From: Pristiophorus japonicus
Taxonomy: Eukaryota
DNA: 64,000 bases
Reading direction: 5' to 3'
Assembly (NCBI RefSeq): GCF_044704955.1
Contig: NC_091999.1
Location: 16,120,001-16,184,000, forward strand
The position numbers and the translations under genes were made by a program. The notes below the pieces were generated by a model, which made no database searches, was not told the origin of the DNA, and saw only the letters and a program-made list of their open reading frames with translations. Below are positions 12,091 through 60,697 of this stretch, one piece after another. Each line of letters begins with the position of its first letter. The first letter of the stretch is position 1.

Positions 12091-12912
12091 TGGGAGGGGG
12101 CGAGCCCGAGTTGGGGTAGGGGGAGAGACGGGCCTGGGGGAGCCGTAGTTGGTGGAGAGGGGAAGGGAGAAAGAACGAGTTGGGGGAGAGGGGTGGAGAG
12201 GGAGAGCCTGAGTTGGGGGAGGGGGGATGGGGAGAGCACAAGTTGGGGGAGAGGGGGAGGGGAAGAGCACGAGTTGGGGTAGAGGGTTAGAGCCCGATTG
12301 AGGGGGAGGGGGGATCCCGGGTTGCGGGGGAGGGGGATGAGGAAAGCTCGTGTTGGGGGAGAGAGGGAGGGGGAGCCCGAGTTTGGGGAGAGGGGGAGGG
12401 GGAGCCCGAGTTGAGGGAGAGGTGGAGGGGGAGAGCCCGAGTTGGGGGAGAGAGGGAGGGGGAGAGCCCGTGTTGGGGGAGAGGGTGAGGGAGGGGGAGA
12501 GCCCGAGTTGGGGGAGTGGGGGAGGGGGGAGCCCAAGTTATTTGGGGAGAGGGGGAAGGGGAGGAGCCTGAGTTGTGGGGAGGAGAGGAGCCCGAGTTGG
12601 GGGGTGGGGAGGAACCCCAGTTGGGGGAGGTGAGAAGCCCCAGTTGTGGGGGAGAGGAGTAGCCTGAGTTGCGGGGGGGGGGGGTGTGGTGATAGCTCGA
12701 GTCGGGGGGGAGGGGAGGATGTAGGAGCCCGAGTCGGTAGGAGATGGGAGAGTGAAGGAGCCCAAGTTGGGAGGGGAGGGAGCCCGAGCCAGAGTGTGGT
12801 GGGTGGGAGGGGAGGGAGCCCGAGTTGTGGGGGGAGGGTAGGGAGCCCGAGTTGAGCTGGGAGAGAGCCCGAGTTGGGGAGAGGAGGGGTGGGAGCCCGA
12901 GTTGGGGGAGGG
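12091..12912 (+). repeat. G-rich degenerate tandem repeat (ggagcccgagttgggggagagggaggg)
   Basis: Roughly 30 units of 25-30 bp with an extreme G strand bias. Confidence 0.9.
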
Positions 12913-12913
12913 G

Positions 12914-13127
12914 TGTGTTCTGTATCTGTAAAGCATGCACTCCCATGTTCTGCCAACAGGTATCACATCCCCTGAAGTCCCAAGGGATCCCAGCATCCCT
13001 TGGGAGCACTGTATATAAGCCGGCCCCTAAGGCATGTTCCTCATTCTGGAGTGCCTTAATAAAGACTGAGGTCACTGTTACTTTAACCTCCCTGTTTGCA
13101 GTCTCATCTCTGTTAGGAACACAATAA
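12914..13127 (+). mobile_element. 5' LTR of a Ty3/gypsy retrotransposon
   Basis: Begins TG; TATATAA near 13012; AATAAA near 13058; followed by TGGCG (degenerate PBS) and gag. Confidence 0.7.
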
Positions 13128-15415
13128 CTGGCGTAGACTATGCAAATCCAATGGAAAGATGCAGCAAACTGTGGGCGTCCTGGAGAAGGTCTTGGAGGAT
13201 GGGGACTAGGAAGCCTATGTCGAACGGCTAAACCAGTACTTTGTAGCCAATGAGCTGGATGGAGAAGGAGGTGCTGCGAAAAGGAGAGCAGTCCTCCTCA
13301 CGGTTTGCGGGGCACCGACCTACAGCCTCATGAAGAATCTTCTGGCTTCAGTGAAACTCACAGATAAGTCGTATGAGGAGCTGTGTGCACTGGTTCGGGA
13401 GCATCTTAACCCGAGGGAGAGCGTGCTGATGGCGTGGTATCGGTTCTACATGTGCCAGCGATCTGAAGGTCAGGAAGTGGCGAGCTACATCGCCGAGCTA
13501 AGGCGACCTGCAGGACAATGTGAATATGATGGCTACCTGGAGCAGCTGCTCGGAGACTTTTTTGTACTGGGCATTGGCCACGAGACCATCTGACGAAAAC
13601 TTTTGACTGAAGAGACACCGACCCTCAGTCAGTCCATTGAAATAGCATAGGCGTTTATGTCCGTCAGTGATAACACCAAACAAATCTCTCAGCACACAAG
13701 TGCTTGCAATGTTCACAAATTAATTGGAACTGTGTTTGTGAGCAGAAATGTACAGGGCAGAAACCACGAGTTTGCAACAGCCAGAAGGCCTCAGGTGACC
13801 AGATGACTCAGAGTCCGCAACAAAGGATGAATGCAAGGTAATTCACACCTTGTTGGCGTTGTGCAGGCTTCCATTCAGCCTATTCATGCCGCTCCAAAGG
13901 GTATGTTTGCAACAGCTGTGGAACAATGGGGTTCCTCCAACGAGCTTGCAACCTGCTGACCACCACGTGGCAGAGGAAGATCGGTCCATGGTGGATAAAA
14001 GCAATTTCGAGCCTCAGAGAGAGGAGGCAGATGCTGAAGTAGACGGGCTGTACACATTTTCGACAAAATGTCCACCTATAATGCTAAATGTTAAATTGAA
14101 TGGCTTACCCGTAGCCATGGAACTGGACACTAGCGCTTGCCAATCCATCATGGGTAAAAAGATGTTTGAGAGACTGTGGTGCAACAAGACTCTCATACCA
14201 GCCCTGAGCCCCATGCACACGAAACTGAGAACGTACACCAAAGAGCTCATCACTGTTCTGCGCAGCGCCATGGTCAAGGTCACCTACGAGGGCACGGTGC
14301 ATGAACTGCCACTCTGGATTGTCCCGGGCGATGGCCACACACTGCTTGGAAGGAGTTGGCTGGGCAAAATCCGCTGGAACTGGGATGACATCCGAGCGCT
14401 ATCACATGTCGATGAGGCCTCATGTACCCAGGTTCTTAAAAATATCCTTCCCTTTTTGAGCCAGGCATTAGACATTTTTACCGGGGCGAAGGTGCTCATC
14501 CACTTGGTCCCAGAGGTACGGCCCATTCACCACAAGGTGCGAGCGGTACCTCACATGATGAGGGAGAGAGTGGAAATCGAGTTGGACAGGCTGCAACGCG
14601 AGGACATCATCTCCCCAGTGGAATTCAGTAAGTGGGCCAGCCCGATTGTTCCTAAGTGATGGCACAGTCAGGATTTGCGGCGATTATAAAGTAACTATTA
14701 ATTATTTCTCGCTACAGGACCAATACCCACTACCTAAGGCAGACTACGTATTTGAGATGCTGACAGGAGGCAAGACGTTCACCAAGCTCGACTAAACTTC
14801 GGCCTACATGACGCAGGAGCTGGAGGAGACTTCGAAGGGCCTCACCTGCATCAACACGCACAAGGGACTGTTCATCTCCAACAGATGCCCGTTTGGATTT
14901 CGGTTGGCTGCAGCGATCTTCCAGAGAAACATGGAGAGCCTACTCAAGTCGGTACCATGCACAGTGGTCTTTCAGGACGACATATTGGTCATGGGTCGGG
15001 ACACTGTGGAGCACCTACAAACCTAGAGGGGGTCCTCCAGCGAATGGATCGCGTAGGGCTGCGGCTGAAGAGGTCGAAATACGTTTTCATGGCAATCGAA
15101 GTGGAGTTTTTGGGGAGAAAGATTGCGGCGGACGGCATTCGGCCCACATACGCCAAGACAGAGCCTATCAGGAACGCGCCCAGGCCACAGAACATCATGG
15201 AGCTGCGGTCGTTCCTGGGACTTCTCAACTATTTTGGCAAATTTCTACCGGGGTTAAGCACCCTCTTAGAGCCCTTACATGTGTTATTGCGTAAAGGTGA
15301 GAACTGGGTATGGGGGAAAAAAACAAGTAATTGCTTTTGAGAAAGCTAGAAACATTTTATGCTCCAACAAGCTGCTTGTATTGTATAAGCTGTGTAAAAG
15401 ACTTGTGCGAGCATG
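13128..15415 (+). mobile_element. Ty3/gypsy gag-pol, degraded and 3'-truncated by the ERV
   Basis: Gag W.AYVERLNQYF..N; Zn knuckles CWRCAGFH..C and CNSCG near 13850; protease MELDTSA; RT WASPIV, PFG..A.AIFQ and FQDD; LRSFLGLLNYF; ends at the start of RNase H. Confidence 0.92.
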
Positions 15416-15943
15416 TGTTTTGGATCGATAATAATAGATCCAGATTCGGGATCTGGATGAATGTTAAATAAGAGACAAGACAAATAAAGTAAAGATAAAA
15501 CACCATTTACTGAGAGAAAGGAAACATCATACAGTTTACGAAGAAAAGGGAAGTATGATAAGATGCAACAAAGCTCACAGCCTTCGACCCGTCGGGAACT
15601 CCGCAACGACGGCTGGTCTGGAGCCTTAGGGGTCCTGGCACCACTCGCGAATCACGGTCTAAGGTGAAATTCAAAGAGCTACTGGACAGTTCCGTTCCTT
15701 TATACTGTTGAATAAACATAGGTGCATGTGGCGTATGGACAACTCCTAATCTGTAAGGCCCCAGATGGTCTTCCACAAAGCATGAGGCCTCGAGGCGCTG
15801 ATCGTCCCACAAACAAGATGGTGTGCGCATCAAGGTCTCTCTCTCTCTGGATCAACAACATTCCACGAGGCATGAAGCAGAATACACACTGTAAGTGTCG
15901 GAATATCATAATTAACCCTATGTGATTAACCCTATACAATACA
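15416..15943 (-). mobile_element. ERV 3' LTR
   Basis: Direct repeat of 21245-21779; TG...CA ends on the minus strand. Confidence 0.9.
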
Positions 15944-16040
15944 ATCCAATCTTGATATTTAGACATTCTAAGTAATATAATCGAGTTGAAAGCGTAATGC
16001 ATCAGTTACATATTGTGTATGTGCGAACAACGCCCACAAT

Positions 16041-16467
16041 CTACATCAAAGAATACATAAATATCAGTAATAACGCGATGAGTAAAACAACGATAGGATG
16101 TAGTAACAGCTTCAAAGCGGCAGATGTCTTTGGGAACCATTCGTAAAAGATGTCCCACCAATGGTGTACAGTAAGGTCATTGACCGTTGTCGCAACTCTG
16201 ACCAAGGCGCCTTCACTGTAACTCATAGCAACTTGCAGAGTATGAAGAGTACGCCCTCGATTGCTCAATTCGTCAGTGACCTTTTGATTATCTTTTAGAA
16301 ATTGAGCTTAACGAGTTAGGTCTACAGTGTGGAGGAAGGTTAGTAATTGTCTTGCATACGATCAGTGTTAGCTATCCGCCACCCCATGCTGTGTTTGAGG
16401 ATGGAAGTAGCACAGTCACAGATAACGAGACACAGAGGCTGGCCAGCACGAGTTGGTAAGTCGCCAT
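16041..16467 (-). pseudogene. env: env remnant (signal peptide plus TM C-terminus only)
   Basis: Acceptor ctcccacag at 16482; ATG at 16467 gives MATYQLVLASLCVSLSVTVLL; later HHWWDIFYEWFPKTSAALKLLLHPIVVLLIALLLIF. Confidence 0.7.
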
Positions 16468-16509
16468 TTTGGGCTGAATTCCTGTGGGAGGAATCATAAT
16501 TATATTAAT

Positions 16510-19500
16510 TCAGCCCCGTTTAGTCAATTTACCCTTGTCAACAGAGGGAGGAACATTTTGACCGGTCAGGAGCACCCAATAAGTGTTTTGTTCTCCTTTC
16601 ACTAACTTTCCCCCTGCTTGCAAGCGTTTCTGGGGGTACTGCACCCACACTTTTCCTCCTTCACAAACTGTGTCCTGAGTCTGATTTTCTTTTTCAATAG
16701 TTGGGACACTAACTTTGCCTAACATGTGGCTTGTGGGAGTTTCCCCCCCACAATGGTCGGTGATTCAGATTGCGCACTGCTTGTGGGAAAATCTTTAACC
16801 ACCCTTGCAATGTGTTAGTGGGAGTTAATATTTTAATCTGTTGTTTAAGTAATCCATTCATGCGTTCCATTAAACCTGCAGCTTGCGGATAGTAAGGTAT
16901 GTGAAACATCCAATAGATCTCGTTATCTACCGCCCACTGTTGCACTGTTTGACCTGTGAAGTGCGACCCATTATCGGACTGCACTTCTGCTGGTTCACCG
17001 TAGTATGTGATTAAATTCTCCAGTCCTTTAATCGTACTTGGTTGATTCGCTTTAGTCACTGGATAAGCGATCAAAAGTATAGAATAGGTATCAACAACAG
17101 TGAGCAAATATTGGAACTGTTGTTGCAATGGTAAACGTCCTACATCATCAACTTGCCATGTTTCTGCTGGTTGAGTCCCTCTCTTAATTGTCGTTGTAGG
17201 GGGAAATGCTTCACCTTTTGACAAATTTCACAGGTGTTTATGATCTGATTAACACCGTCCGTAGTCAAATGTAACCCCCCATTTCGTGCCCACTGTATCG
17301 TACCCTGAATGCCCAAATGTCCAGATTTGTGGTGGGCCCACTTGCCTATGCCATATTCTTCCTCTTCCGCCTCTTTGACAGCCCATACCCGGGCTATATT
17401 ATCAACTGTGTTATTATATTCAGAGGTCTTTGAAGTGTTTTTCATGTGAGTGTCCACATGATATACAGTTATTTTCATCTTCTGGGCTTTGGAACATATT
17501 TGTTCCCATAGGTACTTTCCCCACAAGTCTTTCCCAGTTATTTGCCAGTTATGTTCATGCCAGTTTCGCATTCAGCCCGCCATGCCATTGGCTACTGCCC
17601 ATGAGTCAGTATATATGTGTATTTGTTGCTGTTCCTCTTCTAGCGCAGGGACTACAGCTGCTAGTTCTGCTAGCTGGCTGGAGCCTCCCACGCCCTCATC
17701 ATGCACAATTGTCTGGTTTTTTGGATTGAAGGCAGCGGCTCGCCATCACTGAAGGCCATTTCGCCAGACCGCTGAGCCACCTGTGAACCAGGCATGGCTA
17801 CGTTCTTCGGGTGTTAACTGTTCAAAAGACACATCCCAGGAGATCGGTGACTCTTTGGTTAAACTGACAGACGACTGCGTAAGTTCACTCTCAGTTGTTT
17901 GTGGGTATCCAGCCACATGCTCATGTAGTCGGGTGATTCCTTCTTTCCCTTTACTTGCTCTGTCTGCGATATACCATTTCGAGCGCACTATGCACTCGCC
18001 CGACCTTGTGTGTCTCATTTTCTGAGAGAACCCAGGATAATATGGGTAGGTCTTGTCTTAAACTGACTTTGTCGTCCCCTGTCTGTCCTTCTGTTTCTGT
18101 TAGGGCCCAATAACATGCTAATAATTGTTTCTCAAATGGAGTGTAACGAGCAGCAGCATCTGTCAATGTTCTAGACCATAACCCTAACGATATACGAGTG
18201 CCATGTTGAGCCTGCCACAAACTTCATACTGCAGTATCATTGATAACGGATACCTGGAGCTCAAAAGGCTGTCCAGGCACTCGTGGGGCTAGGGGTAAAG
18301 CTTGAGCTACGGCTTCTTTGGCTGCATCAAAAGCCACCTGTTGTTCCTTTCCCCACTCGAAGTGGGCCTTTTTTCGAGTTGCGGCATACAACGATTTTAA
18401 TAGCAACGTGAGTTGAGGTATGTGTCTCCTCCAGTAACCCAATAGTCCCACGAACCGTTGTGTCTCAGTTTTATTCGTGGAGGTGGCCATTTCTTTAATT
18501 TTATTCCTCACAGGCTCGGGTATGATGCGCTCACCGCGAGACCATTGGATCCCCAGAAACTGGACAAACTGGCTAGGGCCCTGCACCTTCTTCGGATTTA
18601 TCTCCAAGCCCAGATCTCGCATGTGTTGGACTAAAGTAGCTAGGGCTTCTGACACCACAGCCTCGGTGGGACCCCTTATTCGTACATCATCGATATAGTG
18701 TGCCAGTGAGATATTAGGAGCCAACGTGCACATGTCCAGGTCCCGGGCCACCAATCCATGGCATAGGGTAGGGCTATGTAGGTAACCTTGAGGTAGGCGT
18801 TTAAACGTGTATTGCCTCCCTTCCCAAGTGAGTGCAAACTGGTGCTGTGATTCTTCCGCTATTAGAATGGCGAAACTGGCATTGGCCAGGTCGGTTACCG
18901 CATACCACTCCGCACCTTCTTCAGACAGCCGCTCTGTTATAGTTACTACATTGGGACAGCGGTTGCCAGGAGAGGGGCACATTTGTTCAGTTGTCGGTAA
19001 TCCACAGTCATCCTCCAACTTTTGTCGGGTTTCTGCACACGCCAAACAGGGCTTTTGTAGGGGACACCACATGTCTAATGATTCCCGCCTCCAAGAGACC
19101 TTGTATGGTTTCCCCTATTTCTTTGTGTCCCCCAGGTATTTGGTACTGTTTCATAGTCACTATACGCAATGGCCGTGGTATTACCACTGGTTCCCACTTT
19201 GCTTCCTCTGCAATCTCAATGATCGCCCATATCCCGAATGAGAATCGCCCGAACGAGATGTTGTGTGTGGTTCCCTTTAAAAGGTCCATCCCAATAATAT
19301 GTTCCTTTACTGCCGATATTAAGACCGTTACGCAGCGCGGAGGCCCATTTCCCAACGCCATTCTGATAGTTGTTCGGACAGCGGGCGTTTCTGCCCCCCA
19401 CCCCCGAACCCATTAATCATCATACAGGTCCCTGTGTGTTTCCTAGGGTTTCCATGGATAATAGTAACTTCTGCCCCTGTGTCTAGTAAAGCAACATCTC

Positions 19501-19520
19501 TTTGTATGTTCGCCCCCACC
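16510..19520 (-). pseudogene. pol: ERV pro-pol (protease, RT, RNase H, integrase)
   Basis: LLDTGAEVTII; DLANA, LPQGYLHSP and HYIDD; WFTGGSA; WAHHKSGH..CEIC; WQVD, VDTYS, SDNGSHF and ERMNGLLK; many frameshifts. Confidence 0.93.
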
Positions 19521-19633
19521 CCGCCAATGTATCGTAATCGGAATGTGTGGCCTCAGATCCCGGGAGCTTGGGTTGATGTGGTTCTAATGGGGAGTACTCC
19601 CGGATCCCGGCCACACCCCAGTCGAGGGGATTA

Positions 19634-21233
19634 CTAGCCTTCCACAGCTCTTCGACGCTGGGATATAGGCTAGTGGGAGATGGTTTCTCCGCATCCGCAG
19701 ACTTGACGTTATCCGACTAAGTCTCCCTTACCTCCCTCCTTTTACCCTTCCCTGTTCCCGGGACGCAGTGTTGCTTCCACATAGAATACATTGCTCCTGT
19801 TGGGATTGCATCAATTTTTTTTCCTTGGGGACCCCTGCTTTCAATAAAGCCGCGTACATGTCCCTCTGCGCAATTCTTTTTTTTTGTCTTTCCTGACCCT
19901 ATATCTTTCCCAGAGGTCGAACCTTGTCGCTGGTCCCGATCCCCCTCTACATTAGCCGTTCTCGACTCTCGCACACTATCTTCTACATCGTCTAACTGTC
20001 CTAACAACAGGAGAGCGTCCCCTACCCGCTGCTCTTGGGCTGGTCCCAATAATGCACGTAGCGCACCCCTCATCATAGGAGGGCCACTCTTCATCAGCCT
20101 GCTCTGCATTCCTGCCGTAAAGAGCTCCTGATCTGGCCCCCCATATTGTTGGTGATATATTCCTCCCTGTGTTTCCATGTTGTGCAATTGTATCGCACCC
20201 TCCACCACAGTACTCCAAGGTTTTAACTCCCCTTTCCAATCAACGGCAGAGGGATATTTTTCCTGGACCCCTATAGTAACCATGTCCCATAGCGAACTTG
20301 TGCCCTGGACATTTCGTAGCACTGCTGTGATATGGTGGTCCGTAATCATAGTCCTCATTTTTATTAACTCTTCAGGGTTAAGTATTACGCCTGATGCTCC
20401 CTGATCCCAAATCCGGGTTAGCCATTCTGACAATGATTCCTCGGGTTTTTTGCGAAATCGAGACCCTATTTCTTGTAACTCACAAGTGGTGAAGTCACGC
20501 ACCCCTCTAGTGGTTACTGGCTGTTCCCCATCTTGCTGTTTCACCTTATTTGTCATAAGGGGTCTAGCTTTCTTGCTCGGAGCGTATGGGGGAGGGTTTT
20601 TAGTTTCCTCCCGTTCCCCCCTCTCCATCTGACCATTCATATTCTGAGTCAGAGGAGTACCAGATGTCTCCTTCCCAATGAGCCGGATCCCAAGTGGGTC
20701 CAGCTACCAATGCACGTACCTTTGACCGATCTATCTGTAATTTCCGTCGTCTGGATTTTTAATAATGTTGTACTGTCACCAGATGGCATATTAAAGTTTC
20801 TGATTGTTCATTGAGCTTGTCCACCCGTTATTGTGCAGTGTGGACCGCTTCAGTCAGAGTCGAGTTTTGACTTTCGAAAAACCTTAACAGCTGTTTTTAA
20901 CTCTAGGTTTTCTGCCTCACTTTCCTTAAGTTGTTTACACATCGTCTTTAATGCTGTCAACAAAATTCATCCCATTTGTGAGGGATTACTTTTCTCCTGT
21001 GGGAAGCCCGCTTCCTCCAGGAGAGACAGTACCGCGTGGGGTACGGGTCTATCTTTGCTCTGTTCCAATAACTGCATATCCCAATGTTGTGGGGATGCAA
21101 ACTGGGCTAGCACATTGGCAAGAGAGCCAAAACCCTCATCCCTTGTGCTCTACCCTGGTATTCTATACTTCTCTCCCGCAGGAGGAGACTGCTCCTTGTC
21201 TTTTCTCTTAAACATTTTACCAGATCCTGTTCG
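19634..21233 (-). pseudogene. gag: ERV gag (ERV-L/S, Fv1-related type)
   Basis: ORF 19717-20640 contains the PPPY late motif and FRKKPEESLSEWLTRIWDQGASGVILNPEE. Confidence 0.8.
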
Positions 21234-21241
21234 TGATGCCA
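21224..21241 (-). promoter_or_regulatory. Primer-binding site, tRNA-Ser
   Basis: TGGCATCACGAACAGGAT lies 3 nt inside the 5' LTR; one mismatch from the complement of the vertebrate tRNA-Ser(CGA) 3' end ATCCTGTTCGTGACGCCA (recalled). Confidence 0.75.
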
Positions 21242-21244
21242 ACA

Positions 21245-21779
21245 TTTTTTGGATCGATAATAATAGACCCAGGTTCGGGATCTGGATGAATGTTAAATAA
21301 GAGACAAGACAAATGAAGTAAAGATAAAACACCGTTTACTGAGGGAAAAGAAACATAATACAGTTTATGAAGAAAAGAGAAGTATGATAAGATGCAACAA
21401 AGCTCAAAGCCTTCGGCCCGTCGGGAACTCCGCAACGATGGCTAGTCTGGAGCCTTGGGGGTCCCGGCACCGCTCGCGAATCATGGTCCAAGGTGAAGTT
21501 AAAAGAGCTACTGGACAGTTCCATTCCTTTATACTATTGAACAAACATGGGTGCATATGGCTTATGGCCAACTCCTAATCAGTAAGGCCCCAGCTGTTCT
21601 TTCACAAAGCATGAGACCTCGAGGCGCCGACTGTCCCATAAACAAGATGGTGTGCGCATCAAGGTCCCTCTCTCTCTCTCTCTCTGCATCAACAACATTC
21701 CACGAGGCATGAAGCAGAAACACACTGTAAATGTCGAAATATCATAATTAACCCTATGTGATTAACCCTATACAATACA
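21245..21779 (-). mobile_element. ERV 5' LTR
   Basis: Repeat of 15416-15943; TATAAAA near 21530 and AGTAAA near 21337 on the minus strand. Confidence 0.9.
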
Positions 21780-22010: not shown

Positions 22011-22184
22011 CCTTTTTCCATGATTGGATCCTTTGGAGGATAAGCCACAGCCTGAGGTTTCACTCGAATGTATAACTGAAACCACCCATCCCAACGTCTC
22101 ACTGACTTTGCAAATTGTAACTTGATCCACTTTGACTTCCTGAAACAACAGAGGCAGAACTCCCAGAAGACAGCGACTGGAAGC

Positions 22185-22990
22185 CAAAGTGCCTTGCTCC
22201 AGTCGCAGTGCATCCCTCCCCAGCGGAAGTGCCTTACTCCAGTCCTAGTAAATGCCTCCCCAGCCAAAGTGCCTTAACCCGATCCAGTGCATGCATCCCA
22301 GTGCCAAAGTGCCTTACCACAGACCCAGTGCATGCCTCCCCCAGCAAAAGTGCCTTACCCCAGTCCCAGTATATGCCTCCCAGAGGCGAAGTGCCTTACC
22401 CCAGTATATGCCTCCCCCAGCCAAAGTGCCTTACCCCAGTCGCAGTACACGCCTCCCCCAGCCAACGTGCCTTACCCCAGTCCCAGTGGAAGTCTCCTCC
22501 AGCCGAAGTGCCTTACCCCACTCTGAGTGCATGCCTCCACCAGACGAAGTGACTTATCCCAGTCCCAGTGCAGGCTTCCCCCAGCTGGAGTGCTTTATAC
22601 CAGTCCCAGTGCATGCCTCCCCCAGCCGAAGTGCCTTACCCCAGTCCCAGTATATGCATCCCCCAGCCAAAGTGCCTTACCCCAATCCCAGTGCATGCAT
22701 CTCCCAGCCGAAGTGCCTTACCTCATTCCAAGTGCATGCCCCCACCCCAGCTAAAGTGCCTTACCCCAGTCCCAGTGCATGCCTCCCCCAGCCCAAGTCC
22801 CTTACCCCAGTCCCAGTGCACGCCTCCCCCAGCTGAAGTGCCTTAGCCAGTCCAAGTGTATGCCTCCCCCAGCCGAAGTGCCTTACCCTAGTTCCAGTGC
22901 AAGCCTCCCCCATCCAAAGTGCATTACTGCAGTCCGACTGCCTTACCCCAGTCCCAGTGCACGCCTCCCCCAGCCCAAGTGCCTTAACCG
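22185..22990. repeat. 41-bp tandem repeat (ccgaagtgccttaccccagtcccagtgcatgcctcccccag)
   Basis: About 19 units. Confidence 0.92.
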
Positions 22991-23340: not shown

Positions 23341-23427
23341 CTGACAGTTAGATTGGACACATGTTTGTGCCCAGGTCAGTGGCCCCTGACAGGGAGCCTT
23401 GTTGTGCTGAATGTTGTCTGGTGACCC

Positions 23428-23862
23428 TGGGCCAGCCCGGCTCATCCTATTGGGCCAGCCCGGGCTCGCCCTATTGGGCCAGCCTGAGCTCACCATATTG
23501 GGCCAGCACTGGCTCATCCTATTGGGCCAGCATGGGCTCACCCGATTGGGCCTGCCTGGGCTCATCCTATTGGGCTAGCACAGGCACACCCTATTGGGCC
23601 AGCCTGGGCTCACCCGATTGAGCCAGCCTGGGCTCGCCCTATTGGATCAACCCGGCTCACCCTATTGGGCCAGCATGGGCTCACCCTATTGGGCCAGCAT
23701 GGGCTCACGCTATTGGGCTAGCCCGGGCTCACACTATTATGCCAGCTCGGGCTCACCCTATTGGGCCAGCATGGGCTCACCCTATTGGGCCAGCCTGGCT
23801 CATCCTATTGGGCCAGCACAGGCTCACCCTATTGCGCCAGCACAGGCTCACCCTATTGGGGG
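23428..23862. repeat. 24-bp tandem repeat (gggctcaccctattgggccagcat)
   Basis: About 18 units, most containing ATTGG. Confidence 0.92.
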
Positions 23863-31620: not shown

Positions 31621-31749
31621 CACAAGAATACACAAACTGCATGATTGGAAATTAGGAATAGTTCTGTGCTTTTTACTAATTCCAATAAAAGTCTTGACTG
31701 AGATCAGCGCTCAGAATGGTCTGGAACCTCCCGGGATTGTACCTCTTAC

Positions 31750-32067
31750 CCTGAGATCTGCTGAAGTTATGGTTTTGCGTGACCCCTTGATGAGTGACCT
31801 GGCAGGTGTAGACCGAGCCGGTTAACCATTCCTCGGCGGGGACTGTCAGCCGACTGGCTGTCGAGAAGTTCCCGTTCACCTCAAAGACGGGAGAGGTGAG
31901 GAAGCCCGAATCCATGAGTTGTCCACTCTTCAGCCAATTCACAGTCAGTGACTTTGGCCTGAAATCGATGATTGAACACACGGCGCTTGCATATCTGCTG
32001 CTGGTGATTTGTTCAGTGGAACTCAGTGTGAGGAGAACAGTTGGAGGAACGATGTCCCGTTCAGGAT
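31750..32067 (-). CDS. IGHM: IgM CH2 exon
   Basis: cttgaag|(D)[67 protein letters not shown]|gtaag. Confidence 0.96.
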
Positions 32068-32204
32068 CTTCAAGAGAAGACATATTACTGACATTGCTTG
32101 CAAAATAAATGATTAAGAAATGCAAAGTGTCCTTATATTTTAACGGGTTCTTTGCTGTCAGACTAACACAAACCTGGCAGTTACAGAGAGCAGGACTGTG
32201 CACA

Positions 32205-32455
32205 GAATTCTCAGTGTAATATGCAGCCCGGAACTGTGCACAATATTCTAAGTGCGATATGGGGACCAGAACCATGCACAGTACTCTAAGTGTGATATGG
32301 AGACCAGAATTATGCATAATATTCTAAGTACGAGATGGAAACCAGAAATTTAAACAATATTCTAAATGTGATAAGGAGACTAGAACTGTGCACAGCATTA
32401 TAAGTATGTTACAGAGAGCAGAATTGCACACAGTACTCTAAGTGTTGTCTGATCA
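32205..32455. repeat. 38-bp tandem repeat derived from CR1 ORF2
   Basis: About 6 units of accagaactgtgcacaatattctaagtgtgatatggag, the reverse complement of the CR1 HLEYCVQFWSP motif. Confidence 0.7.
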
Positions 32456-32523
32456 AGTTCCGATGCAAGTTAAACATAATTTCTCATCTTATCACAATTT
32501 GCCCTGTATCCCACACCACTAAC

Positions 32524-32823
32524 CTGGCATTGTGATGGCCCAGACCGACACACCACGTCGAACCTCGCAGTTGATTGTGCTGCTCCCCACCTCTGACTCG
32601 GTGATGGTTAACTGGCTGCTCTGGGTGTAGATTCCCTTCTTGTTGAGCACTGGCGGGTAGGTCTTCAATCCAGTGGTGATCGGCTCTTTATCTTTCTTCC
32701 AGGAAAGGCTGGTGATGTCGGGGGAATAGTCCATTGCCAAACAGCCGTACGTGATGGAGCCATCGGTGCTGGGTTGTTCACAGGAGGAGAGCAGGGCGTA
32801 GAGGGTGGGGGGAGACGGTGTTA
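32524..32823 (-). CDS. IGHM: IgM CH1 exon
   Basis: ttcccag|(V)[71 protein letters not shown]|gttag; closely resembles shark Cmu1. Confidence 0.96.
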
Positions 32824-33594
32824 CTGGGAAGGAATGGCCCATTGAACAAGTTAGACTCTGTAATCCGTGCTTATAAAAGAAAGAAACAACTCGAAATTTT
32901 ACTGCAGAATAAACTAATTCCACCATTTCCCCATCAAAGACTACACGGGCATTTGAGCTTCTGTCAGTTCCATCATAAGCACCTGTCGATGCCCCTGTCA
33001 GGAACACACCTCTCTATCCCCGAGCTCTATCACATTACACAACAAGAACTTTTACATAACTCGTCAATAAAGAATCCTTCATTGGATCATACAATCGAAG
33101 AACAGAGACGTGTTCCTGCTTTTTCGGCCATCATTTATTTCTCAATCAGCACCATTTTTGGTCCTTTATTGCAGTTTGGGGAAATTTACTCTGTGCACAT
33201 TGCCTGCGGCGTATCCCTACAAAACAACAGTGACTGCATTTCAAAGTAACAGCGGAATTCCTGCCTCACGCGTCAGCAAAAAACCCTCTAAATTTGCCTG
33301 CCACATAATTCAACAGGAAGCATTTCCATAGTCTAGTTTCTAAGATTCAGTCTGTAGATGAATCGCGATTGAGTTGAATCTCTCTCTTTCTTTCTCAGTA
33401 TTTGAGGGAGAGCGATGTCCTTCAGCGCACTGTGATCTGGACTCTATCCCATCCTATTGAATGCATGTCTCTTGAGTTTCCTCCTCCCTGCCACTCAATT
33501 AATAATCCGAATAAAATACCATTCCAAATTCCGGTTAATTGGAAGTTTCTCCTTAAATGGCCCATTTCAATTCCCATTGTTGTTCTTGTTATGT

Positions 33595-34500
33595 AACAAT
33601 GACATGGACTTGGGTATAGGGAATGCAATTTCGAATTTAGAAGATAATGCAAAACCTGGCAACGTAGCCAATAGTGAACATGATAGCAGCAGACTCCATG
33701 AGGAGACAGATGGTCCAGTGAAATGGGCCGGAACATGGCAATTGCAATTTAATGCGAATCATTGAGAAGCGATACACATTGGATGGAAGATGGAGAGGCA
33801 GTATAATCTAAATAGTATTATTTTGAGGGGATGCATGAACAGAGATATCTAGATGTATATATTCACAAATCTTTGAAGGGGGCAGGGCAAACTGGTTAGA
33901 CTATTATGAAAGCGTATGGGATACTTGACTTTGTAAATGGGACATTGACTACAAAAACAAGGCGGTTATGCTAAACTTACAGATCACGTGTTAGACCTCA
34001 GCTGGAGTATTGTGCATAATTCTGGAACAACAATGTAGGAAGGATGTCAAGCCCTTGGGGAGTGTAGAGGGGAGGCTTTTACCAGGATGATGCCAGGGAT
34101 GGGATCTTCAGTTATGTGGAGAGATTGGAGAAGCTGGGATGTTCTCCTTAGAGCAGAGGTTAAGAGGAGACCTAAGAGAGATATTCAACATTATGACAGG
34201 TTTTGATAGAGCAAGTAGGGAGAAACAGCTTTCGCTGGAAAGAAGTTGCGTAACCAAAGGTCACAGATTTAAAATAATTGGCAGAAGATCGAAAGGGGAA
34301 ATTGGGGTAATTTTTTCACACAGAGGGTTGGTAATTTCAGGAATGCTCCAGGCAGTTCATCCTGTACGTCAGGAGGATTCATTTGCACGTTTACAATGAA
34401 AACCCTGGGGAGTTGGACTAAATTGGACAGCTCTTTCAGAGCCGGCACAGGCACGATGCCTGAATGGTCTTTTCAGTGTTGTGAGATGCTATCATTCTAT
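33595..34500 (+). mobile_element. Degraded CR1 3' half in the J-C intron
   Basis: VRPQLEYCA.FW and LRGDL.E.F motifs and a 3' tail. Confidence 0.8.
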
Positions 34501-35214
34501 ACGAGTCATGGGAATAGTTCTTCTAGATTTAATGGAAGGAAACGCTTCATATTTTGGACACCTCTACCAGATCTACTTTTATTGTTCATTAGAATGAAAG
34601 AGGATATTTCAGAAAAGGATCTTATAAATCTGACGCAAATTAGTCAATCGCATGCTGTTATAAAGGCTTAAAGTTCATTGTGAATGATGACGTATTGCAG
34701 GTTGACTCTATCTCTTTAAATGTTTCACAGAATTGCAGCTCAGTGACTGTGTGCCTTGTCTTGTGACCCAGGCCAATAGCTGCATCTCGTCATAGTTTGT
34801 CCCTGCCTTTAACCTTCTCAGGAAGAATTGAACAACATAATGTTTCTAAACATGAGGTCCTCATGACGGTCATTTGAAGCGGCAGTCCCGATATTCTCCA
34901 TTTAAATTGTGAAAATATCTTACAGCCTCCCAACAGATCAGAACAGGCGCTGCTTTCTGGAGCGTTATTCACTTCCTGAAACGGTTTGTTCTGAAAGTGA
35001 GCTGAGGATCAGGCCAATCGTGTTCAATAGTAATCTGATGCTCAAAATGTTCAAACATTAATAACTCATTAAAAATTGGGCATTTTTTTCAGAAAGAATA
35101 TAAACATCAATGAATGTGCGTTGTTTAATCTGGGCAATGGAACGATTCATTGTATATATCTGGCACGAGCAGTTTATCTGCTATCTGTTAGACGCAGATA
35201 ACGGTGCCTTGAAC

Positions 35215-35995
35215 ACTGCCTGACCAAGCACTCTCAGGTCAGATATAGCACGGATAAGAGAGCAAAGCTCCCGCTATGCTGCCGTGTGGGTCAGGACAGG
35301 TATAGCAAGGGTTGCACACAGAGTAATACGTTATCTGTGCTATCCCGTCAAACATTCCCAGCTGAAGTACTGCAGAGATGTGCTACGAAATGTCTTCCCT
35401 TAAAATGCGTTATCAAATTGACCGATTAGATTAAGCACAATTATCACAAGTACAAATAAAAGCTTCCGATACACTGATCCATTAAAGCGCACCAGCTCAC
35501 CTAGAGCTCTGATTAAATAGAAGATCAATCTATATTGAAGGACCCAATTAAGCTCCACGTCCTTGTAAATAAAAGGTTAAATACTGATTAAAGCTATCTC
35601 TGCAATGTCCCATCAAGCACTGCCATTTAAGGTAAAGCACGGGTTAGTTGCAGAGTAAAGCTCCCTCTTCACTGTCCCATCAAATACTCCCAAGACAGGT
35701 ACAGTGTAAAGCTCCCTCTACAGTGTCCCATTAAACATTCTCAGGGCAGGTACAACATGGGTCAAGATACAGAGTAAAGCTCCATCTACACTGTCCCATC
35801 AACACTCCTAGGGCACGTAGAGCATGGGCTAAATACAGAGTAACACTCCCTCTACACTGTCCCATCAAACACTCCCAGGGCACGTACAGCATGGGCTAGA
35901 TACAGAGTAAAGCTCCTTCTGCCCTGTCCCATCAAACACTCCCAGGGCAGGTACTACCGGGTTAGAAACTGATTAAAGCTCCTTCTACTGTCTCC
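35215..35995. repeat. 67-bp satellite in reverse orientation, in the J-C intron
   Basis: Units ctacactgtcccatcaaacactcccagggcaggtacagc, increasingly degenerate to the left. Confidence 0.85.
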
Positions 35996-38237
35996 CCATG
36001 GTGTTTCGGAACTGCTTCTTCTGGCTATCATAATCTGGATTAACGATCTCATTTCTGCGGAGACTCCACAACCTCAAAGTCAATCTTTCACGTTTCTCAC
36101 CTATGCCAGTTTCTTAAATAACTGAGTTAAATGACACTCCCCGCAATACAGGATCACAATCGAGAAGTTTTACAACCCGTCAGGAGGACTCCTGATTCTC
36201 ACACAGTGAGCAGGCGCACATAAACAGAACAGACACAAACGGTGCTCCAGGCAGAGAGACCAGTTCAATCTATTAATTTCAATGAAGTTGTTTGATTTCT
36301 AATTTATTTCTTGCCAATTTCCAACCACCGCAAGTCTGCAGATTCTTTGAAATTAAACTGATATTAATTTGAGAGAAACTTCAACATCCAGCCATTTTTC
36401 CATCTCTGTCAACTATCTTGTAAACCGTGTAAAAATTAACTTCCCTGAAAGTAAGTATCTGGAAATAATTCACATTCCACGGCAATTTGCTGCCCGTCAC
36501 ACGGGACTTGGTGACATATTCAGAATGTCACAATCCAGGGGACATCTACATTGAAACCTGATCACCCACTGATTTTATATATTTTCATCAGTAAATATAA
36601 CCTGTAAAATCATCGAGGCAAAACAAGAAGTTAATTCACTAAAATCTGCAGCGACACCTTATCAAACTCAGCACAGCCGGGTTATACATGCATTGTTTTG
36701 TAAATTAACTTATGAATTAATTAAACATTATCTGCAACCCTTGAGATTTTGCAATAATTGTAATACTGACCAGTATGCAACACAATTGTAATGGATCGTT
36801 TATGTTTAATGAATTAGCACTGATGTTACTGTCTAAGTTAATGTTCATGTTAGCTGATTATTGAAAATAATCTGAGTGCTTATCTGGCTCTTCCTGCTCA
36901 GAAGCACACGTACCTGGAACTTTTGAAATTAAATTAACGTTCTTGAATTTCTGCCTTACTAATGCAATTAATTAATAATAATATTAAAACCTTTTTCTGC
37001 CTGGTAACTTGTGATATATTAAGATTAACTTAACTTACAATAACAATTCATGAATATTAAAATATTAAGCAGCATATTAATACATACATTCTCAGAAAAA
37101 TACCTTATTTTTACTTATATCGAATCAAATTTGAATAATTGACAATAATCACGCAGTTCTACCACTGTCCCGCTCTCGACCGACATCTTTTTAAACTCTG
37201 CATGTTTCTGATATAGCAAAAACTGAGTCTATTCGCAGAGAACATTTCACATGATGGATTTAGGGGAGGACTATTTTAAATAGTTCTCTGTCCAGCCGAG
37301 GTCACAACTCCGATGGTTGTAAACCGCTTGTTTACTAATACTGGAATCTCGAGCTGAAATATTCTCCTCAATCTTAAACCCCAAAAATGGTTTTATTAAT
37401 TAAAACCCACCCGTGCAGCTTAAAGTCAATAGCAGAGCCTCCGCTGTTTAATAACACAGACAATCTTTTATAGTTCACTCCCGTTATTCACATAATGCCC
37501 GCAAATTAATGATTAAATATACTCTGCTACTTCTTGAAAATAGTTTCCAGAATGGTGAGTGTAAAACTGGAGGATAACAAATCATTCAGACCATATGCGA
37601 CACTGAAACTGAATGAGGTGAGACTTTGTTCATCAATTTAACATTCATAAGAATTAAACATAACTCTCAGATATTATCTGTGCTTTGTCTACCGTTCTAT
37701 TCCGCATACAGCAGCGTTTTGGGAGATAGGATTTTGTTTTAAATTCAAAAGAAGATGGACCTTTTGTAAGTAAATTAATCTGCTTGAATTTCAATGGATT
37801 ATTTGCCTGTCTCCATCCATACACAGTCGGAACCTGCCTTGAATTTAAATATAATTACATGAATAATTCTTTGACTGCCAGCGACGCCTGTCTCTCAGCT
37901 TTTGGTCTTGCAAAGTGTTCAAGATTAATTTAGTAATAATTCTATCAAACAACACACAATATTGATTCAATAACAATTTTCGGCTGCACAGTGAGAATGT
38001 CATACCCCAGCAGATATATTAAATTGACAAAATGCAATTTGCAACACGGCTTTAAGTTATAATTAATTGCACTCAGTCATTCATCTGTGTAAACAGGAGG
38101 TAGCAAGTAATTGAACTCCCGACTCAAACTGAACACAGCGGTGGAATCAGTATGTTATTAATGAAATAATTGCAGGCATAATTAATAACTGTATCCAGCC
38201 TCTAAAAGTTTCTGCTTCCTTTAATGGAGCCCAGTGT

Positions 38238-39500
38238 AGAGCAGGATTTTGGAAGGCGAATAATATTAAGTAAATTAACATTGGACTTATAGCATATTTT
38301 AATAACACTGGGAGATATTATCGCATTATAATCGGTTGGTTAATATTAATTTAATTCAACTACATCCTGAACACGTTAATTATTCAGATGGCAATTAGTT
38401 ACATTTCGCACAATAAAATATCAGCATCGTAAACATAAATTAATAGTTGAATATATAATTATCACTTGTATAATTGTTATATTAAAATACCTTTCAATGA
38501 TTTCTGATTTCTAAACCCGTCCTGTTCTCTGTCTATAAACTGTTTTCAAACAGTTTCAAACACATATCGTGTTTGCATTCGAGCAGAAACCTGCTGCTGC
38601 CCGCTGACACCCATATTGAACATTGTAGAAACGCCTAGATTCACAAATTCTAGGTATTCTGAGTAACACAGGCACATCTCTCCTCAGCAGATCAACACTA
38701 AATCACATCACTGAGGGGCGGAATCCCTCGACAGAACCTTTCATGGAGCAGATCCTTCATTTCATCAACCCTTTCAGCAGAATCAAATGTATCATTGCAA
38801 AAAATCTCATTACAAAATCACTGAACCCGCCTAACACTGAAATAACTAAAGATTGAATTCAACAGAAATATAAAATAATGAGAGCAGAATTGTGATTAGA
38901 CAGATCATGTTAAATACATTAATGTTGATATTATAGCATATTTAATAAAACGTGATGATATTGCTACATTATAATAATGTTAATAATATTAATTTAAGTG
39001 TGTCCCAGCGTGAAATATGTTAATTTTTCAGTACTTAATTACAGTAACAGCTCACGTATTGAATCTGAGAGTTCGGGAACATTCGGTCAGTAGATGACAA
39101 TCCAATTTTCATTAAAAAACTTAAAATTCCTTAAGATTATTTACTGGTCGCTAAGCTTTCTGTTTTGTGCCTACAATGTTCTTTTAAACACATTTAAACA
39201 CAATGTTTGCATTCGATCAGAAAAACTGCAGCAATTAGTGGTCACCAAAATTAAACATTGCAGAAACATCAAACAGTGTAAAAACCATAATGTATTTAGA
39301 GTAACCCAGGCACATGTCTCGTCAGCAAATAAACAGCAAATCACATGAACAACATTTTCTGTGGAGAAAAAGTTGAATTCTATAATCACTTTGCAGCAGA
39401 ATCACATTGAAAATTGCAAAAAATCTCAAAACAAAATCCACTGAACCTAAGTTTCAGTGAACGAAATAATTATTAAAATAAACAGAAATATAAAATAAAG
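38238..39500. repeat. Diverged tandem duplication of about 630 bp in the J-proximal intron
   Basis: Colinear shared blocks ttatagcatattt, gtttgcattcga, caggcacat.tc, gcagaatca, attgcaaaaaatctca and aacagaaatataaaataa in 38238-38880 and 38881-39500. Confidence 0.8.
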
Positions 39501-39541
39501 ACACAAATACAAGAGTTACTGAATGAGTGAATGTTCCTTAC

Positions 39542-39609
39542 CTGCAGTCACCGTTACCATGGTCCCTTGTCCCCAGTAGTCCTTGGCAATGTACCCACTC
39601 CCGCAGTCC
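39542..39609 (-). CDS. Germline-joined D(D)J segment
   Basis: g gac tgc ggg agt ggg tac att gcc aag gac tac tgg gga caa ggg acc atg gta acg gtg act gca g|gtaagg = DCGSGYIAKDYWGQGTMVTVTA; no RSS between the D-like part and J. Confidence 0.88.
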
Positions 39610-39637
39610 CACAGTGACAGGAACCCGCACACATACT
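39610..39637 (+). promoter_or_regulatory. 12-bp-spacer RSS at the 5' end of the D(D)J
   Basis: CACAGTG + acaggaacccgc (12) + ACACATACT. Confidence 0.85.
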
Positions 39638-40044
39638 GCACTCACTCTCTGCTCAGTACTGACTCTCAACATTCACGTCAAATAGACATTCACTTCAAAT
39701 ACTCATTCGCTTCTGATCAAGTTTAGAATTTAGCCAACAGTTTACATAGCACAATTGAAAGTGAACACAGTTCTAACCAGCTCCCTGCATGTACCAGGCA
39801 CAGTGAATCGAGCATCACCTCCAGCTCTGCAATTGCTGACACTGTTAACATTAAACAGGAGCATAATGAACACCTCCGTTCTGTACATGGGTTAGTGTGT
39901 TAGATTTTTACCATTGAATTCTCAGTGTGTTAGTTTTGTAAGAAGCGGTTTATGGTCTTGTTCTGTACATTGCCGGTAACATTGCATTTGACACAATTAA
40001 TGACCATCAGGTTATGATGTAAGTTGTTGAATTCCCCCTCGATC

Positions 40045-40083
40045 TGTTCTTGTACAGGTCCAGCCCTGGTTCCTCTCGCTGTG
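40045..40083 (-). promoter_or_regulatory. 23-bp-spacer RSS of VH
   Basis: CACAGCG + agaggaaccagggctggacctgt (23) + ACAAGAACA, immediately after YYCARY. Confidence 0.92.
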
Positions 40084-40388
40084 GTACCTTGCACAGTAAT
40101 AGATGGCGGCGTCTTCGCTCTTCAGATTCTTCATGTCCAGCGCGAAGATGTTGTTTGAAATGTCTTTGGACGCAGTAAATCGGCTCGCAATCCCTGCGGC
40201 GTAATACTTGTTCGATGGACTGTAATACTGAACCAGCCACTCCAGCCCCTGTCCGGGAATCTGGCGGATCCAGTACATGTAGCTGCCACCAAGATCGAAG
40301 CCGCTGGTTTTACAGGTCAGTCTCAGGGAGCTTCCGGGAAACCTGATCTCTGCCTCGGGCTGAGTCAACACCACATCCGACTGGACAC
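40084..40388 (-). CDS. IGHV: IgM VH exon, unrearranged and open
   Basis: tttacag|(R)[73 protein letters not shown]. Confidence 0.97.
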
Positions 40389-40515
40389 CTGTAAAAATAA
40401 TCAAAATACCCGAAGATTCAATCCTGGTGAAATGATTCCTGACTCTGTAACATTCCAGAGAGAGACTAACACTGAGACAGTAACAGTGAGACATTGGACA
40501 ATAAAAACTACTCAC

Positions 40516-40561
40516 GGGAAAAGAAAGCCAGCAACAGACTGAGAGAAATCGCCGACCTCAT
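40516..40561 (-). CDS. IGHV: VH leader exon
   Basis: [15 protein letters not shown] c|gtgagt; phase 1, joins the V exon in frame. Confidence 0.95.
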
Positions 40562-59190: not shown

Positions 59191-60697
59191 TCATCCTGCA
59201 CTGCCACAGTACTGGCACCAGGCGTGTCGGTTTCGATTATCGGCTCAGCTCTCTCGAGCGGGGTTTAGTATCTGTGACCTTCTGAATCAGAGGCGAGAGT
59301 GATCCCACTGAGCCGAATCTTGAACATATCACAGCTTGTATTTTAAAATGCTGCCATTCAGCTCATCATGTCTGAAGTCCAGGGTCTGAGCCCAGTCTTA
59401 CACCGCTCCATTTATCATCAGGAGCGAGTTCTCTCATCTTGCCTGAGATATCATTACCACACTGTGATTTTCACTGTGTTCATATAAAAGTGTCAGTGAT
59501 TCCACAGGGAACATCTCGAAGTGCCCCAGGCAGAACGACTCACAGACTTAAGAGATTTATATTGTGTGAGCTGGATAATCAGAGCATCTGGAAGCTGGGA
59601 CTGTTCTCCTCAGAGCCGAGCAAGTTATGGGCCATTTAATAGAGGTATTCAAAATCAGGAAAAGTTTTGATCGGGTAAATTGGGAGATAATTCATCATTC
59701 CCTCTGACCACCCGCCTCTCCTTCTCTCCATTCCTTCATCACTCCATTTCTCTATCCCCCTCGCCCTCCATACCTGCCTCCATCAATCGCTCCCTCCTTG
59801 GACACACCTCTCCCTCCCTCCGTCCGCACTCCACCCATCCAATACACTACACCTCCCTTGCTCCACTCCTCCATTCCTCCATCGCTCCCTCCATCAATCG
59901 CTCACTCCGTGCACCCATCCCTACCTCCGTCTCAGTTTATATTAAACTCGACCATGTCTCTGTTTATATTACACTAGGCACTGCATCAGTTATTCCTGCC
60001 ATAGACCATGGCTGAAATATATTATATAAATGCCTGTCTCTCTTCATATTACATTAGATCTTGTCTAAACTATTAGTGCGCTGGACGCTGTCTGTATTTC
60101 TTATACTATCGACCCTGCTCAGTTATTTCAGCACTTGCACATGCGTCTGTTACATAGGCAGGAGATATACAGAGGGTTTGACAGATATTAATATAAATAA
60201 ATATGTATATATGTGTGGGTGTGAGGATGCAATACTTTTTTGTTTGGAAGTATATGCTTAGATTTGTTAACAGCTATCAGCACGTGTGTGCAATCTCTAA
60301 TTGATCTGTTATTATGACGGTAATAATTGTGTTGAAAGGATGAGTGAATCTTGTAACAATCTTCCAGTAATGGATTGGGATTGAGGGACAGGACGGAAGG
60401 TGAGCAATTCACTGCACTTTGAACTACTGGCAAAATCTGTGGGCTTGAGGTTACAAATTCACACTTGTGTTGTCCTGTGCCTATTTCTCCAAGTTCTTTA
60501 ACGTTAAGGATTGTTTTTCATCCAGTATTTGACGTGACCCACTGATTATGTAGGACAGAGCCTGGAACCGTGATCTCAGAGCACCGCCGGATGGGCGGCC
60601 ACAGTGTCCTAATATCGACCGGAAAATATGTTCTCACCTTGTGAAATGAACAACTGAAAAGAGAACACAAAAGTGTTTGGTATATGTTTATGTGTGT

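What the first reader, a model, noticed from the sequence alone, without database searches (positions are those of the whole stretch)
15416..21779. Class III ERV-S-like retrovirus with a tRNA-Ser PBS in a cartilaginous fish
Seen: two LTRs; PBS TGGCATCACGAACAGGAT; gag W..RIWDQG; RT LPQGYLHSP and HYIDD; env TM HHWWDIF..W.P......LLLHPIVVLL; no room for a dUTPase after IN. Established: this combination matches ERV-S/ERV-L class III elements, best known from tetrapods. Inference: a shark member would either extend the lineage deep into jawed vertebrates or reflect cross-class transmission.
Basis: partly seen in the sequence, partly recalled or inferred. Interest (0 to 1): 0.7.

Follow-up and report, generated by a model that had tools for sequence, protein, structure and literature searches.

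The report
Shark ERV-L retrovirus sharing F-type envelope
This is a dead copy of an abundant shark retrovirus from an ERV-L-related lineage already published for the whale shark, but its family's envelope is predicted to be built like a paramyxovirus fusion protein and is also carried by a distantly related retrovirus family in the same genome, so the two likely swapped it.

Summary
The provirus is real: two LTRs, a tRNA-Ser(CGA) primer site, broken gag-pro-pol, no dUTPase, and env missing about 1.4 kb. It belongs to a family of at least 132 copies in a shark genome. Class III placement holds. "ERV-S-like, best known from tetrapods" does not: RT-RNase H groups with stingray elements inside the ERV-L/ERV-S clade, a clade with the S-like bird and mole elements is rejected (p-AU 4e-5), and Xu et al. 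2018 already list a whale-shark element (Rh_ty_ERV3) beside HERV-L whose Gag matches this one. What I did not find in print is the envelope. Longer copies show a furin site and a ~360-residue cysteine-rich ectodomain without gamma-type motifs, which the ESM Atlas places with paramyxovirus/baculovirus F proteins (a lead; my own models failed). The same envelope, 46% identical, follows an epsilon-like class I polymerase that is only 28% identical, in the same genome: likely an envelope exchange across classes. This scan noted F-type envelopes before in other shark genomes, mostly read there as snakehead-clade elements. The window copy is probably a recombinant and was duplicated with 13 IgH clusters.

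The parts
21245..21779 (-). 5' LTR (535 bp), TG start, terminal CA altered; TATA-like TATAAA at LTR position 247
21224..21241 (-). Primer-binding site for tRNA-Ser(CGA), 17 of 18 match
19645..21218 (-). gag, in several pieces; no Pfam or PDB hit; 31% identical to stingray ERV Gag over 249 aa; no CCHC knuckle seen
19050..19552 (-). Protease (DTG), broken
17984..19062 (-). Reverse transcriptase (LPQGYLHSP, YIDD) and tether, broken
17191..17991 (-). Tether end, RNase H and integrase zinc-binding region, broken
16516..17200 (-). Integrase core and C-terminal part; no dUTPase between them
15950..16467 (-). env remnant: signal-peptide start joined to the membrane-proximal end; about 1.4 kb missing at 16345/16346
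15944..15955 (-). Short, decayed polypurine tract
15416..15943 (-). 3' LTR (528 bp), TG...CA
12902..15415 (+). Flanking Ty3/gypsy-type element (label from motifs and recall), cut at the LTR edge and not continued beyond 21779
31676..40557 (-). Neighbouring immunoglobulin heavy-chain cluster (C-domain exon near 31676-32323 read from the translation; VH near 40012-40557), duplicated together with the provirus

Best explanation
The window holds a dead, env-deleted provirus of a shark class III retrovirus family of the ERV-L/ERV-S clade, close to the published whale-shark Rh_ty_ERV3, whose envelope is predicted to be an F-type fusogen and was likely exchanged with an epsilon-like class I family in the same genome. 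Shown: tRNA-Ser primer sites, 5-bp target duplications, and many dispersed copies with and without env. Inferred: the virus first spread by infection using a cleaved SU-TM envelope of paramyxovirus/baculovirus-F design; an env-deleted subfamily kept copying, inside cells or with helper Env; template switching between co-packaged genomes moved env between class III and class I backbones, probably from class III to class I; the window copy then recombined with another copy's LTR and was multiplied passively with an IgH cluster.
For: Family: 132 of 132 scored RT candidates match at 75-100% (lower bound). 13 of 19 independent two-LTR copies have exact 5-bp duplications, 2 more 4 of 5. Of 29 copies with a readable PBS, 24 fit Ser(CGA) and 5 fit Ser(AGA). 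Tree: family plus 2 stingray proteins 99/96, inside an 18-row clade (96/97) with the mouse ERV-L cluster. Published relative: (41 of 53 Gag core residues identical, counted by eye). Env: 9 of 40 copies hold a 1.34-1.43 kb segment, 86-92% alike, missing from the window. Furin site, ~360-aa ectodomain, 10 Cys, no CX6CC or immunosuppressive-domain motif. Atlas: features 0.93 to Baculo_F/Gypsy and Fusion_gly clusters; TM 0.52-0.56 to F0 and Baculo_F models against 0.26 or less for the other 7 rows. Sharing: the same env lies behind a class I-type pol in 8 of 8 loci fetched, at 45-48% identity; env 46% over 366 aa against RT-RNase H 28% over 359 aa; that pol scores 460 bits to MLV against 189 to foamy RT and matches clade Mu Rh_ty_ERV1. 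A lungfish class III Pol model carries a more distant homolog, E 5e-17.
Against: The F-type call rests on one source, the Atlas, run on a horn-shark homolog (57% identical), whose own model is poor (pTM 0.36) and whose structure scores are under the tool's bar for naming a family. My two AlphaFold models were unusable (pLDDT 36 and 42) and three fold searches gave nothing. Pfam and PDB sequence searches found no fusion-protein hit, nor did Baculo_F and Fusion_gly profiles in this genome (stricter first look). The tree lacks HERV-S, HERV-L, snakehead, foamy and gypsy rows, and the 18-row clade was not recovered in the smaller LG+G4 tree. Direction of the exchange rests on one lungfish gene model. 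The non-pairing of the window LTRs lies in a poorly resolved tree.
Confidence: 0.7

Rival explanations
1. One reading: an ERV-S member of a tetrapod lineage, new to sharks, showing deep extension or a cross-class jump.
For: Ser PBS, env present and no dUTPase match how PMC8278194 describes ERV-S (env sequences, no dUTPase).
Against: Closer to mouse ERV-L than to S-like proteins; S-like clade rejected; sister group is stingray; whale-shark relative published in 2018; XtERV-S shows a Ser PBS also occurs on an ERV-L-type backbone.
Confidence: 0.08
2. The family is an ordinary known class III shark ERV and its env is a diverged retroviral envelope of no special fold; the Atlas hits reflect long helices plus beta strands.
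For: No Pfam, PDB or fold-search support; shuffled proteins reach 0.9 in the Atlas 4-10 times in 100, and its figures were not measured for protein parts.
Against: The top structure rows and most top feature rows are F-type families; ectodomain length and cysteine content are unlike gamma-type TM (gamma-type length recalled); predicted order of fusion peptide, helices, beta-rich domain, helix fits F.
Confidence: 0.15
3. Both families inherited the F-type env vertically from the ancestor of class I and class III retroviruses; no exchange occurred.
For: F-type envelopes occur in lokiretroviruses and foamy viruses, so the ancestral state may be F-type.
Against: Env, normally the fastest-changing gene (established knowledge), is 46% identical where RT-RNase H is 28%, with short DNA-level matches left; the shark class III env is closer to the shark class I env than to the lungfish class III env (24-27%).
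Confidence: 0.07

Closest known systems
Rh_ty_ERV3, whale shark (Xu et al. 2018, PMC6001957, S2 Fig and S2 Data; clade Huo)
   Same: Listed beside No_fu_ERV1, HERVL, Murine_ERVL and HERV-S (tip order read from the figure's text, topology not visible); Gag core 41 of 53 identical by eye, with shared motifs along the visible ~350 residues.
   Different: Other shark; its pol and env were cut from view, so they could not be compared. The main text has no hit for HERV, ERVL, whale or Rhincodon.
MuERV-L / HERV-L (ERV-L)
   Same: 48% RT-RNase H identity to the Mus cluster (MuERV-L label inferred from host, dUTPase and recalled motifs); YIDD; no CCHC Gag; stingray relatives' Gag named Fv1-like by NCBI.
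   Different: ERV-L has a dUTPase after integrase and no env; this family has env and no dUTPase.
HERV-S and S-like bird and mammal ERVs
   Same: Env present, dUTPase absent; Ser PBS (recalled for HERV-S).
   Different: Clade with the S-like proteins rejected; HERV-S env could not be compared.
XtERV-S, Xenopus (PMC8278194)
   Same: ERV-L-type gag-pol, Ser PBS, env acquired by recombination.
   Different: XtERV-S has a dUTPase and a short class I-like env (441 aa, CWIC, ISD); this env lacks those motifs and is predicted F-type.
Lokiretroviruses (PMC7947760) and foamy viruses (PMC11468914)
   Same: Env related to paramyxo/pneumovirus F.
   Different: Different pol lineages; here the predicted F-type env sits on ERV-L-clade and epsilon-like pol.
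Rh_ty_ERV1, whale shark, clade Mu (PMC6001957)
   Same: Its RT motifs match the second, env-sharing family.
   Different: Class I pol; its env was not visible in the supplement text.

Membership tests
Class III ERV, ERV-L/ERV-S clade (clade Huo) | RT-RNase H groups with ERV-L/S-type proteins, apart from class I | tested here: met
   outgroup was 3 class I-type loci of this genome; no snakehead or foamy rows
Class III ERV, ERV-L/ERV-S clade (clade Huo) | 5-bp target-site duplication (recalled for ERV-L) | tested here: met
   13 of 19 exact, 2 more 4 of 5; not met by the window copy itself
Class III ERV, ERV-L/ERV-S clade (clade Huo) | Gag without Cys-His zinc knuckle | tested here: met
   no Pfam hit on the 328-aa gag frame, no CCHC in the translations; the class I family has zf-CCHC
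ERV-L sensu stricto | dUTPase after integrase | tested here: not met
   0 of 41 copies; control positive
ERV-L sensu stricto | No env | tested here: not met
   env segment in 9 of 40 copies; 115 env matches in the genome
ERV-S (HERV-S-like) | tRNA-Ser primer-binding site | tested here: met
ERV-S (HERV-S-like) | env present, dUTPase absent | tested here: met
   definition from PMC8278194
ERV-S (HERV-S-like) | Pol forms a clade with S-like elements | tested here: not met
   p-AU 4.06e-05 against mole, chicken and pheasant proxies; proxy label inferred
ERV-S (HERV-S-like) | Env homologous to HERV-S env | not testable with these tools
   no HERV-S env returned by any search
F-type class I fusogen (paramyxo/pneumo/baculovirus F, loki, foamy) | Signal peptide, furin site, fusion peptide, long cysteine-rich ectodomain, C-terminal membrane anchor | tested here: met
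   signal and fusion peptides judged by eye
F-type class I fusogen (paramyxo/pneumo/baculovirus F, loki, foamy) | Structural match over the beta-rich core | tested here: inconclusive
   Atlas TM 0.52-0.56 on a weak model; own models too poor
Gamma-type Env | CX6CC and immunosuppressive-domain motif in TM | tested here: not met
   neither motif in either family's env; CX6CC pattern absent from all 16 copies scanned
Epsilon-like class I ERV | RT groups with class I | tested here: not met
   28% to the class I family; separate 100/100
Lokiretrovirus | RT sister to all other retroviruses | tested here: inconclusive
   no loki row in the tree; nesting among ERV-L-type proteins at ~48-50% identity argues against

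The most novel reading that the evidence does not exclude
F-type (paramyxovirus-like) envelopes are a native envelope of aquatic ERV-L-clade retroviruses, from sharks to lungfish, and an epsilon-like class I retrovirus captured one in sharks. This would be the reverse of XtERV-S and would put the F fold on class I and class III backbones as well as on foamy viruses and lokiretroviruses, supporting F-type as the ancestral retroviral envelope.
Probability: 0.45. Interest if true: 0.65.

Novelty: new variant of a known kind. Interest (0 to 1): 0.45.

Why it matters
The flagged claim, a class III ERV-L/S element in a shark, adds little: it has been in print since 2018. The envelope matters more. 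Wang and Han (PMC7947760) left open four scenarios for how F-like and canonical retroviral envelopes relate, and Fernandez et al. (PMC11468914) set F-like foamy Env apart from orthoretroviral Env. A multi-copy F-type env on both an ERV-L-clade and an epsilon-like backbone in one genome would make that question testable with many sequences, and shows that env motifs cannot classify these elements. The provirus also marks a 13-member subfamily of shark IgH clusters.

Tried and rejected
No related locus in viral contigs. No foamy protease profile hit in the genome, with no positive control. Pfam and PDB gave no hit for gag or env. Baculo_F and Fusion_gly profiles found nothing in the genome. Both AlphaFold models were low-confidence and their fold searches uninformative. 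The window's gypsy RT was too distant or broken to enter the tree. An apparent 4-of-5 target duplication in the window was rejected: in 6 of 7 further paralogs the right flank begins with 7 more bases and does not match the left. Dating from the window's own LTRs was therefore rejected. The first protein-representative search added only unnamed or class I distant hits. PMC13343379, PMC8672886, PMC12193657, PMC12583693 and PMC12287698 passages did not bear on this element. Hayward et al. 2015 (PMC4299219) is not held. Dfam and Repbase could not be searched. No expression data were examined.

Full report
Observation. The element lies on the minus strand between LTRs at 21779-21245 and 15943-15416 (K2P 0.081). 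The PBS matches 17 of 18 bases of a host tRNA-Ser(CGA) gene plus CCA. gag, pro, RT, RNase H and integrase are recognisable but broken; pol lies in 7 pieces with 3 in-frame stops. No dUTPase is present here or in 40 other copies (control).

Host. The window holds a VH segment and a C-domain exon read from the translation. VH matches are dispersed as many near-identical copies, 44 of 150 scored, mostly on one contig, the cluster organisation known for cartilaginous fish (established knowledge). The closest RT and env relatives are from stingray, horn shark and sawshark records.

Family. All 132 scored RT candidates match at 75-100% (133,263 first-look candidates, so a lower bound). I fetched 40 of the 132; 5 are segmental duplicates of the window. 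Of 19 independent copies with two LTRs, 13 have exact 5-bp target duplications, 2 match at 4 of 5 and 4 could not be called or did not match. Their LTR distances are 0.027-0.087, median 0.051. At the rate assumed by Han 2015 (2.2e-10 per site per year) that is about 61-198 million years, median 116; the rate is an assumption and CpG decay inflates the figure. Of 29 readable PBS, 24 fit Ser(CGA) and 5 Ser(AGA). Env state in the 40: 9 hold a 1.34-1.43 kb segment absent from the window, 2 hold it with further inserts, 5 hold part, 9 share one larger deletion, 5 have the window's deletion, and 10 had other deletions or could not be called.

The window copy. Its LTRs do not pair in an LTR tree whereas most other copies' LTRs do (weak backbone). 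The left flank is a gypsy-type element cut at 15415 that does not resume after 21779, and 6 of 7 further paralogs show flanks that do not match. It is therefore probably a recombinant or rearranged provirus, and its 8% LTR distance is not an age. The same junction occurs at 13 loci, each beside one of the 13 best VH matches.

Placement. Homologs come from rays, white shark, teleosts, bichir, lungfish, amphibians, a turtle, birds and mammals. The RT-RNase H is 48% identical to a Mus cluster with dUTPase (MuERV-L by inference) and 38-39% to chicken, pheasant and mole proteins (S-like by inference). The careful tree used 46 of 57 prepared rows; I left out 5 redundant or short outgroup loci, 4 redundant family copies and 2 short proteins. 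The family and two stingray proteins form a clade (99/96) in an unresolved three-way split with the mouse ERV-L row and an 11-row group containing the S-like proteins. In a 23-row tree that wider clade is unresolved, but holding the family with the S-like rows is rejected (p-AU 4.06e-05). HERV-S, snakehead, foamy and gypsy rows were not available. The stingray sister group and the horn-shark and whale-shark relatives fit long residence in elasmobranchs rather than a recent jump from tetrapods.

Already known. Xu et al. 2018 (PMC6001957; passages, S2 Fig text, searches in S1 and S2 Data) state that clade Huo, which includes class III, infects all major vertebrate lineages. Their figure lists Rh_ty_ERV3, No_fu_ERV1, HERVL, a frog element, Murine_ERVL and HERV-S in sequence. 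The visible Gag of rh_ty_ERV3 matches the window Gag (41 of 53 in a core stretch, by eye). PMC11089739 (passages) counts 2,843 clade III RT loci in 6 chondrichthyan genomes. Han 2015 (PMC4422223, part 1 of 2) found snakehead-like and epsilon-like lineages in elephant shark. PMC4977317 (passages) reviews the same.

The envelope. Longer copies show a CxxC motif in SU, a furin site, a fusion-peptide-like stretch and a long ectodomain with 10 cysteines, without CX6CC or an immunosuppressive-domain motif. Only 3 of 1,239 candidate proteins matched, all from sharks; a lungfish Pol model carries a distant homolog. For the horn-shark homolog the Atlas gives feature scores of 0.93 to Baculo_F/Gypsy and Fusion_gly clusters and TM 0.52-0.56 to F-type models (whole protein TM 0.42). 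This is a lead on a weak model: my own folds and all sequence-profile searches failed to confirm it.

Envelope sharing. A search with a related env found 122 of 122 scored loci of a second family. In 8 of 8 loci fetched, env follows a different pol with MLVIN_C and a CCHC Gag, scoring 460 bits to MLV and 189 to foamy RT and matching clade Mu Rh_ty_ERV1. Env is 46% identical between the families and RT-RNase H 28%. Apart from short env matches, no DNA is shared with the window provirus. Exchange after the class I/III split is the simplest reading; the lungfish homolog weakly favours class III as donor.

Literature on this point. F-like Env is described for lokiretroviruses (PMC7947760, passages) and foamy viruses (PMC11468914, passages); PMC13524379 (passages) contrasts lokiretroviruses with canonical vertebrate retroviruses; XtERV-S is a class III backbone with a class I env (PMC8278194 and PMC10536682, passages); PMC13709493 (passages) includes HERV-S in an Env tree without mention of F. 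Searches returned no paper reporting F-type env on ERV-L-clade or epsilon-like pol; one listed preprint on retroviral SU structure (10.1101/2021.11.05.467493) was seen only as a listing, subscription journals are mostly missing, and long supplement sequences were cut. Four unreviewed notes of this scan report F-type envelopes on shark retroviruses in other genomes, with snakehead-clade elements named as closest; I saw them after reaching this reading and did not test them.

Verdict. The family's predicted F-type envelope, shared with a class I family, is the part worth following. Novelty: new variant of a known kind. Interest 0.45.

Noticed in passing
L038, L039, L042, L047, L055, L059, L062, L063, L065: 9 of 40 copies share one larger env deletion whose junction holds a short copy of the polypurine tract plus LTR start, suggesting a double template switch followed by amplification of an env-less subfamily.
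   Followed up: partly
L040, L041, L046, L054, L064: 5 of 29 readable PBS fit tRNA-Ser(AGA) instead of Ser(CGA): primer switching within one family. The exact AGA 3'-end pattern occurs 1,022 times in the genome, largely in ~1.95-kb tandem arrays on contig C23 among the listed places; the CGA pattern once.
   Followed up: partly
window 31676-40557 and G000 C23, C4133, C3501: The 13 best VH matches (86-100%) lie beside the same 13 loci that carry the gypsy-provirus junction: the provirus marks one subfamily of duplicated IgH clusters.
   Followed up: partly
P0098, P0100 (white shark records): A second elasmobranch ERV-L-type lineage nests among killifish and mudskipper elements (100/98), a candidate teleost-shark transfer.
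   Followed up: no
P0036, P0104 (owl records): Owl ERV-L-type proteins group with a frog element (97/92), a candidate amphibian-bird transfer.
   Followed up: no
P0196-P0202 (stingray records): Several stingray gene models from the related ERV cluster are named 'Friend virus susceptibility protein 1-like'; possible Gag co-option or automatic naming only.
   Followed up: no
window 22180-22990 and 23380-23860: 41-bp and 24-bp tandem repeats next to the 5' LTR, present in the duplicated block.
   Followed up: no
window 57852-59236 and 62468-63852: Two identical LINE fragments 4,616 bp apart with an N run between them; recent duplication or assembly repeat.
   Followed up: no
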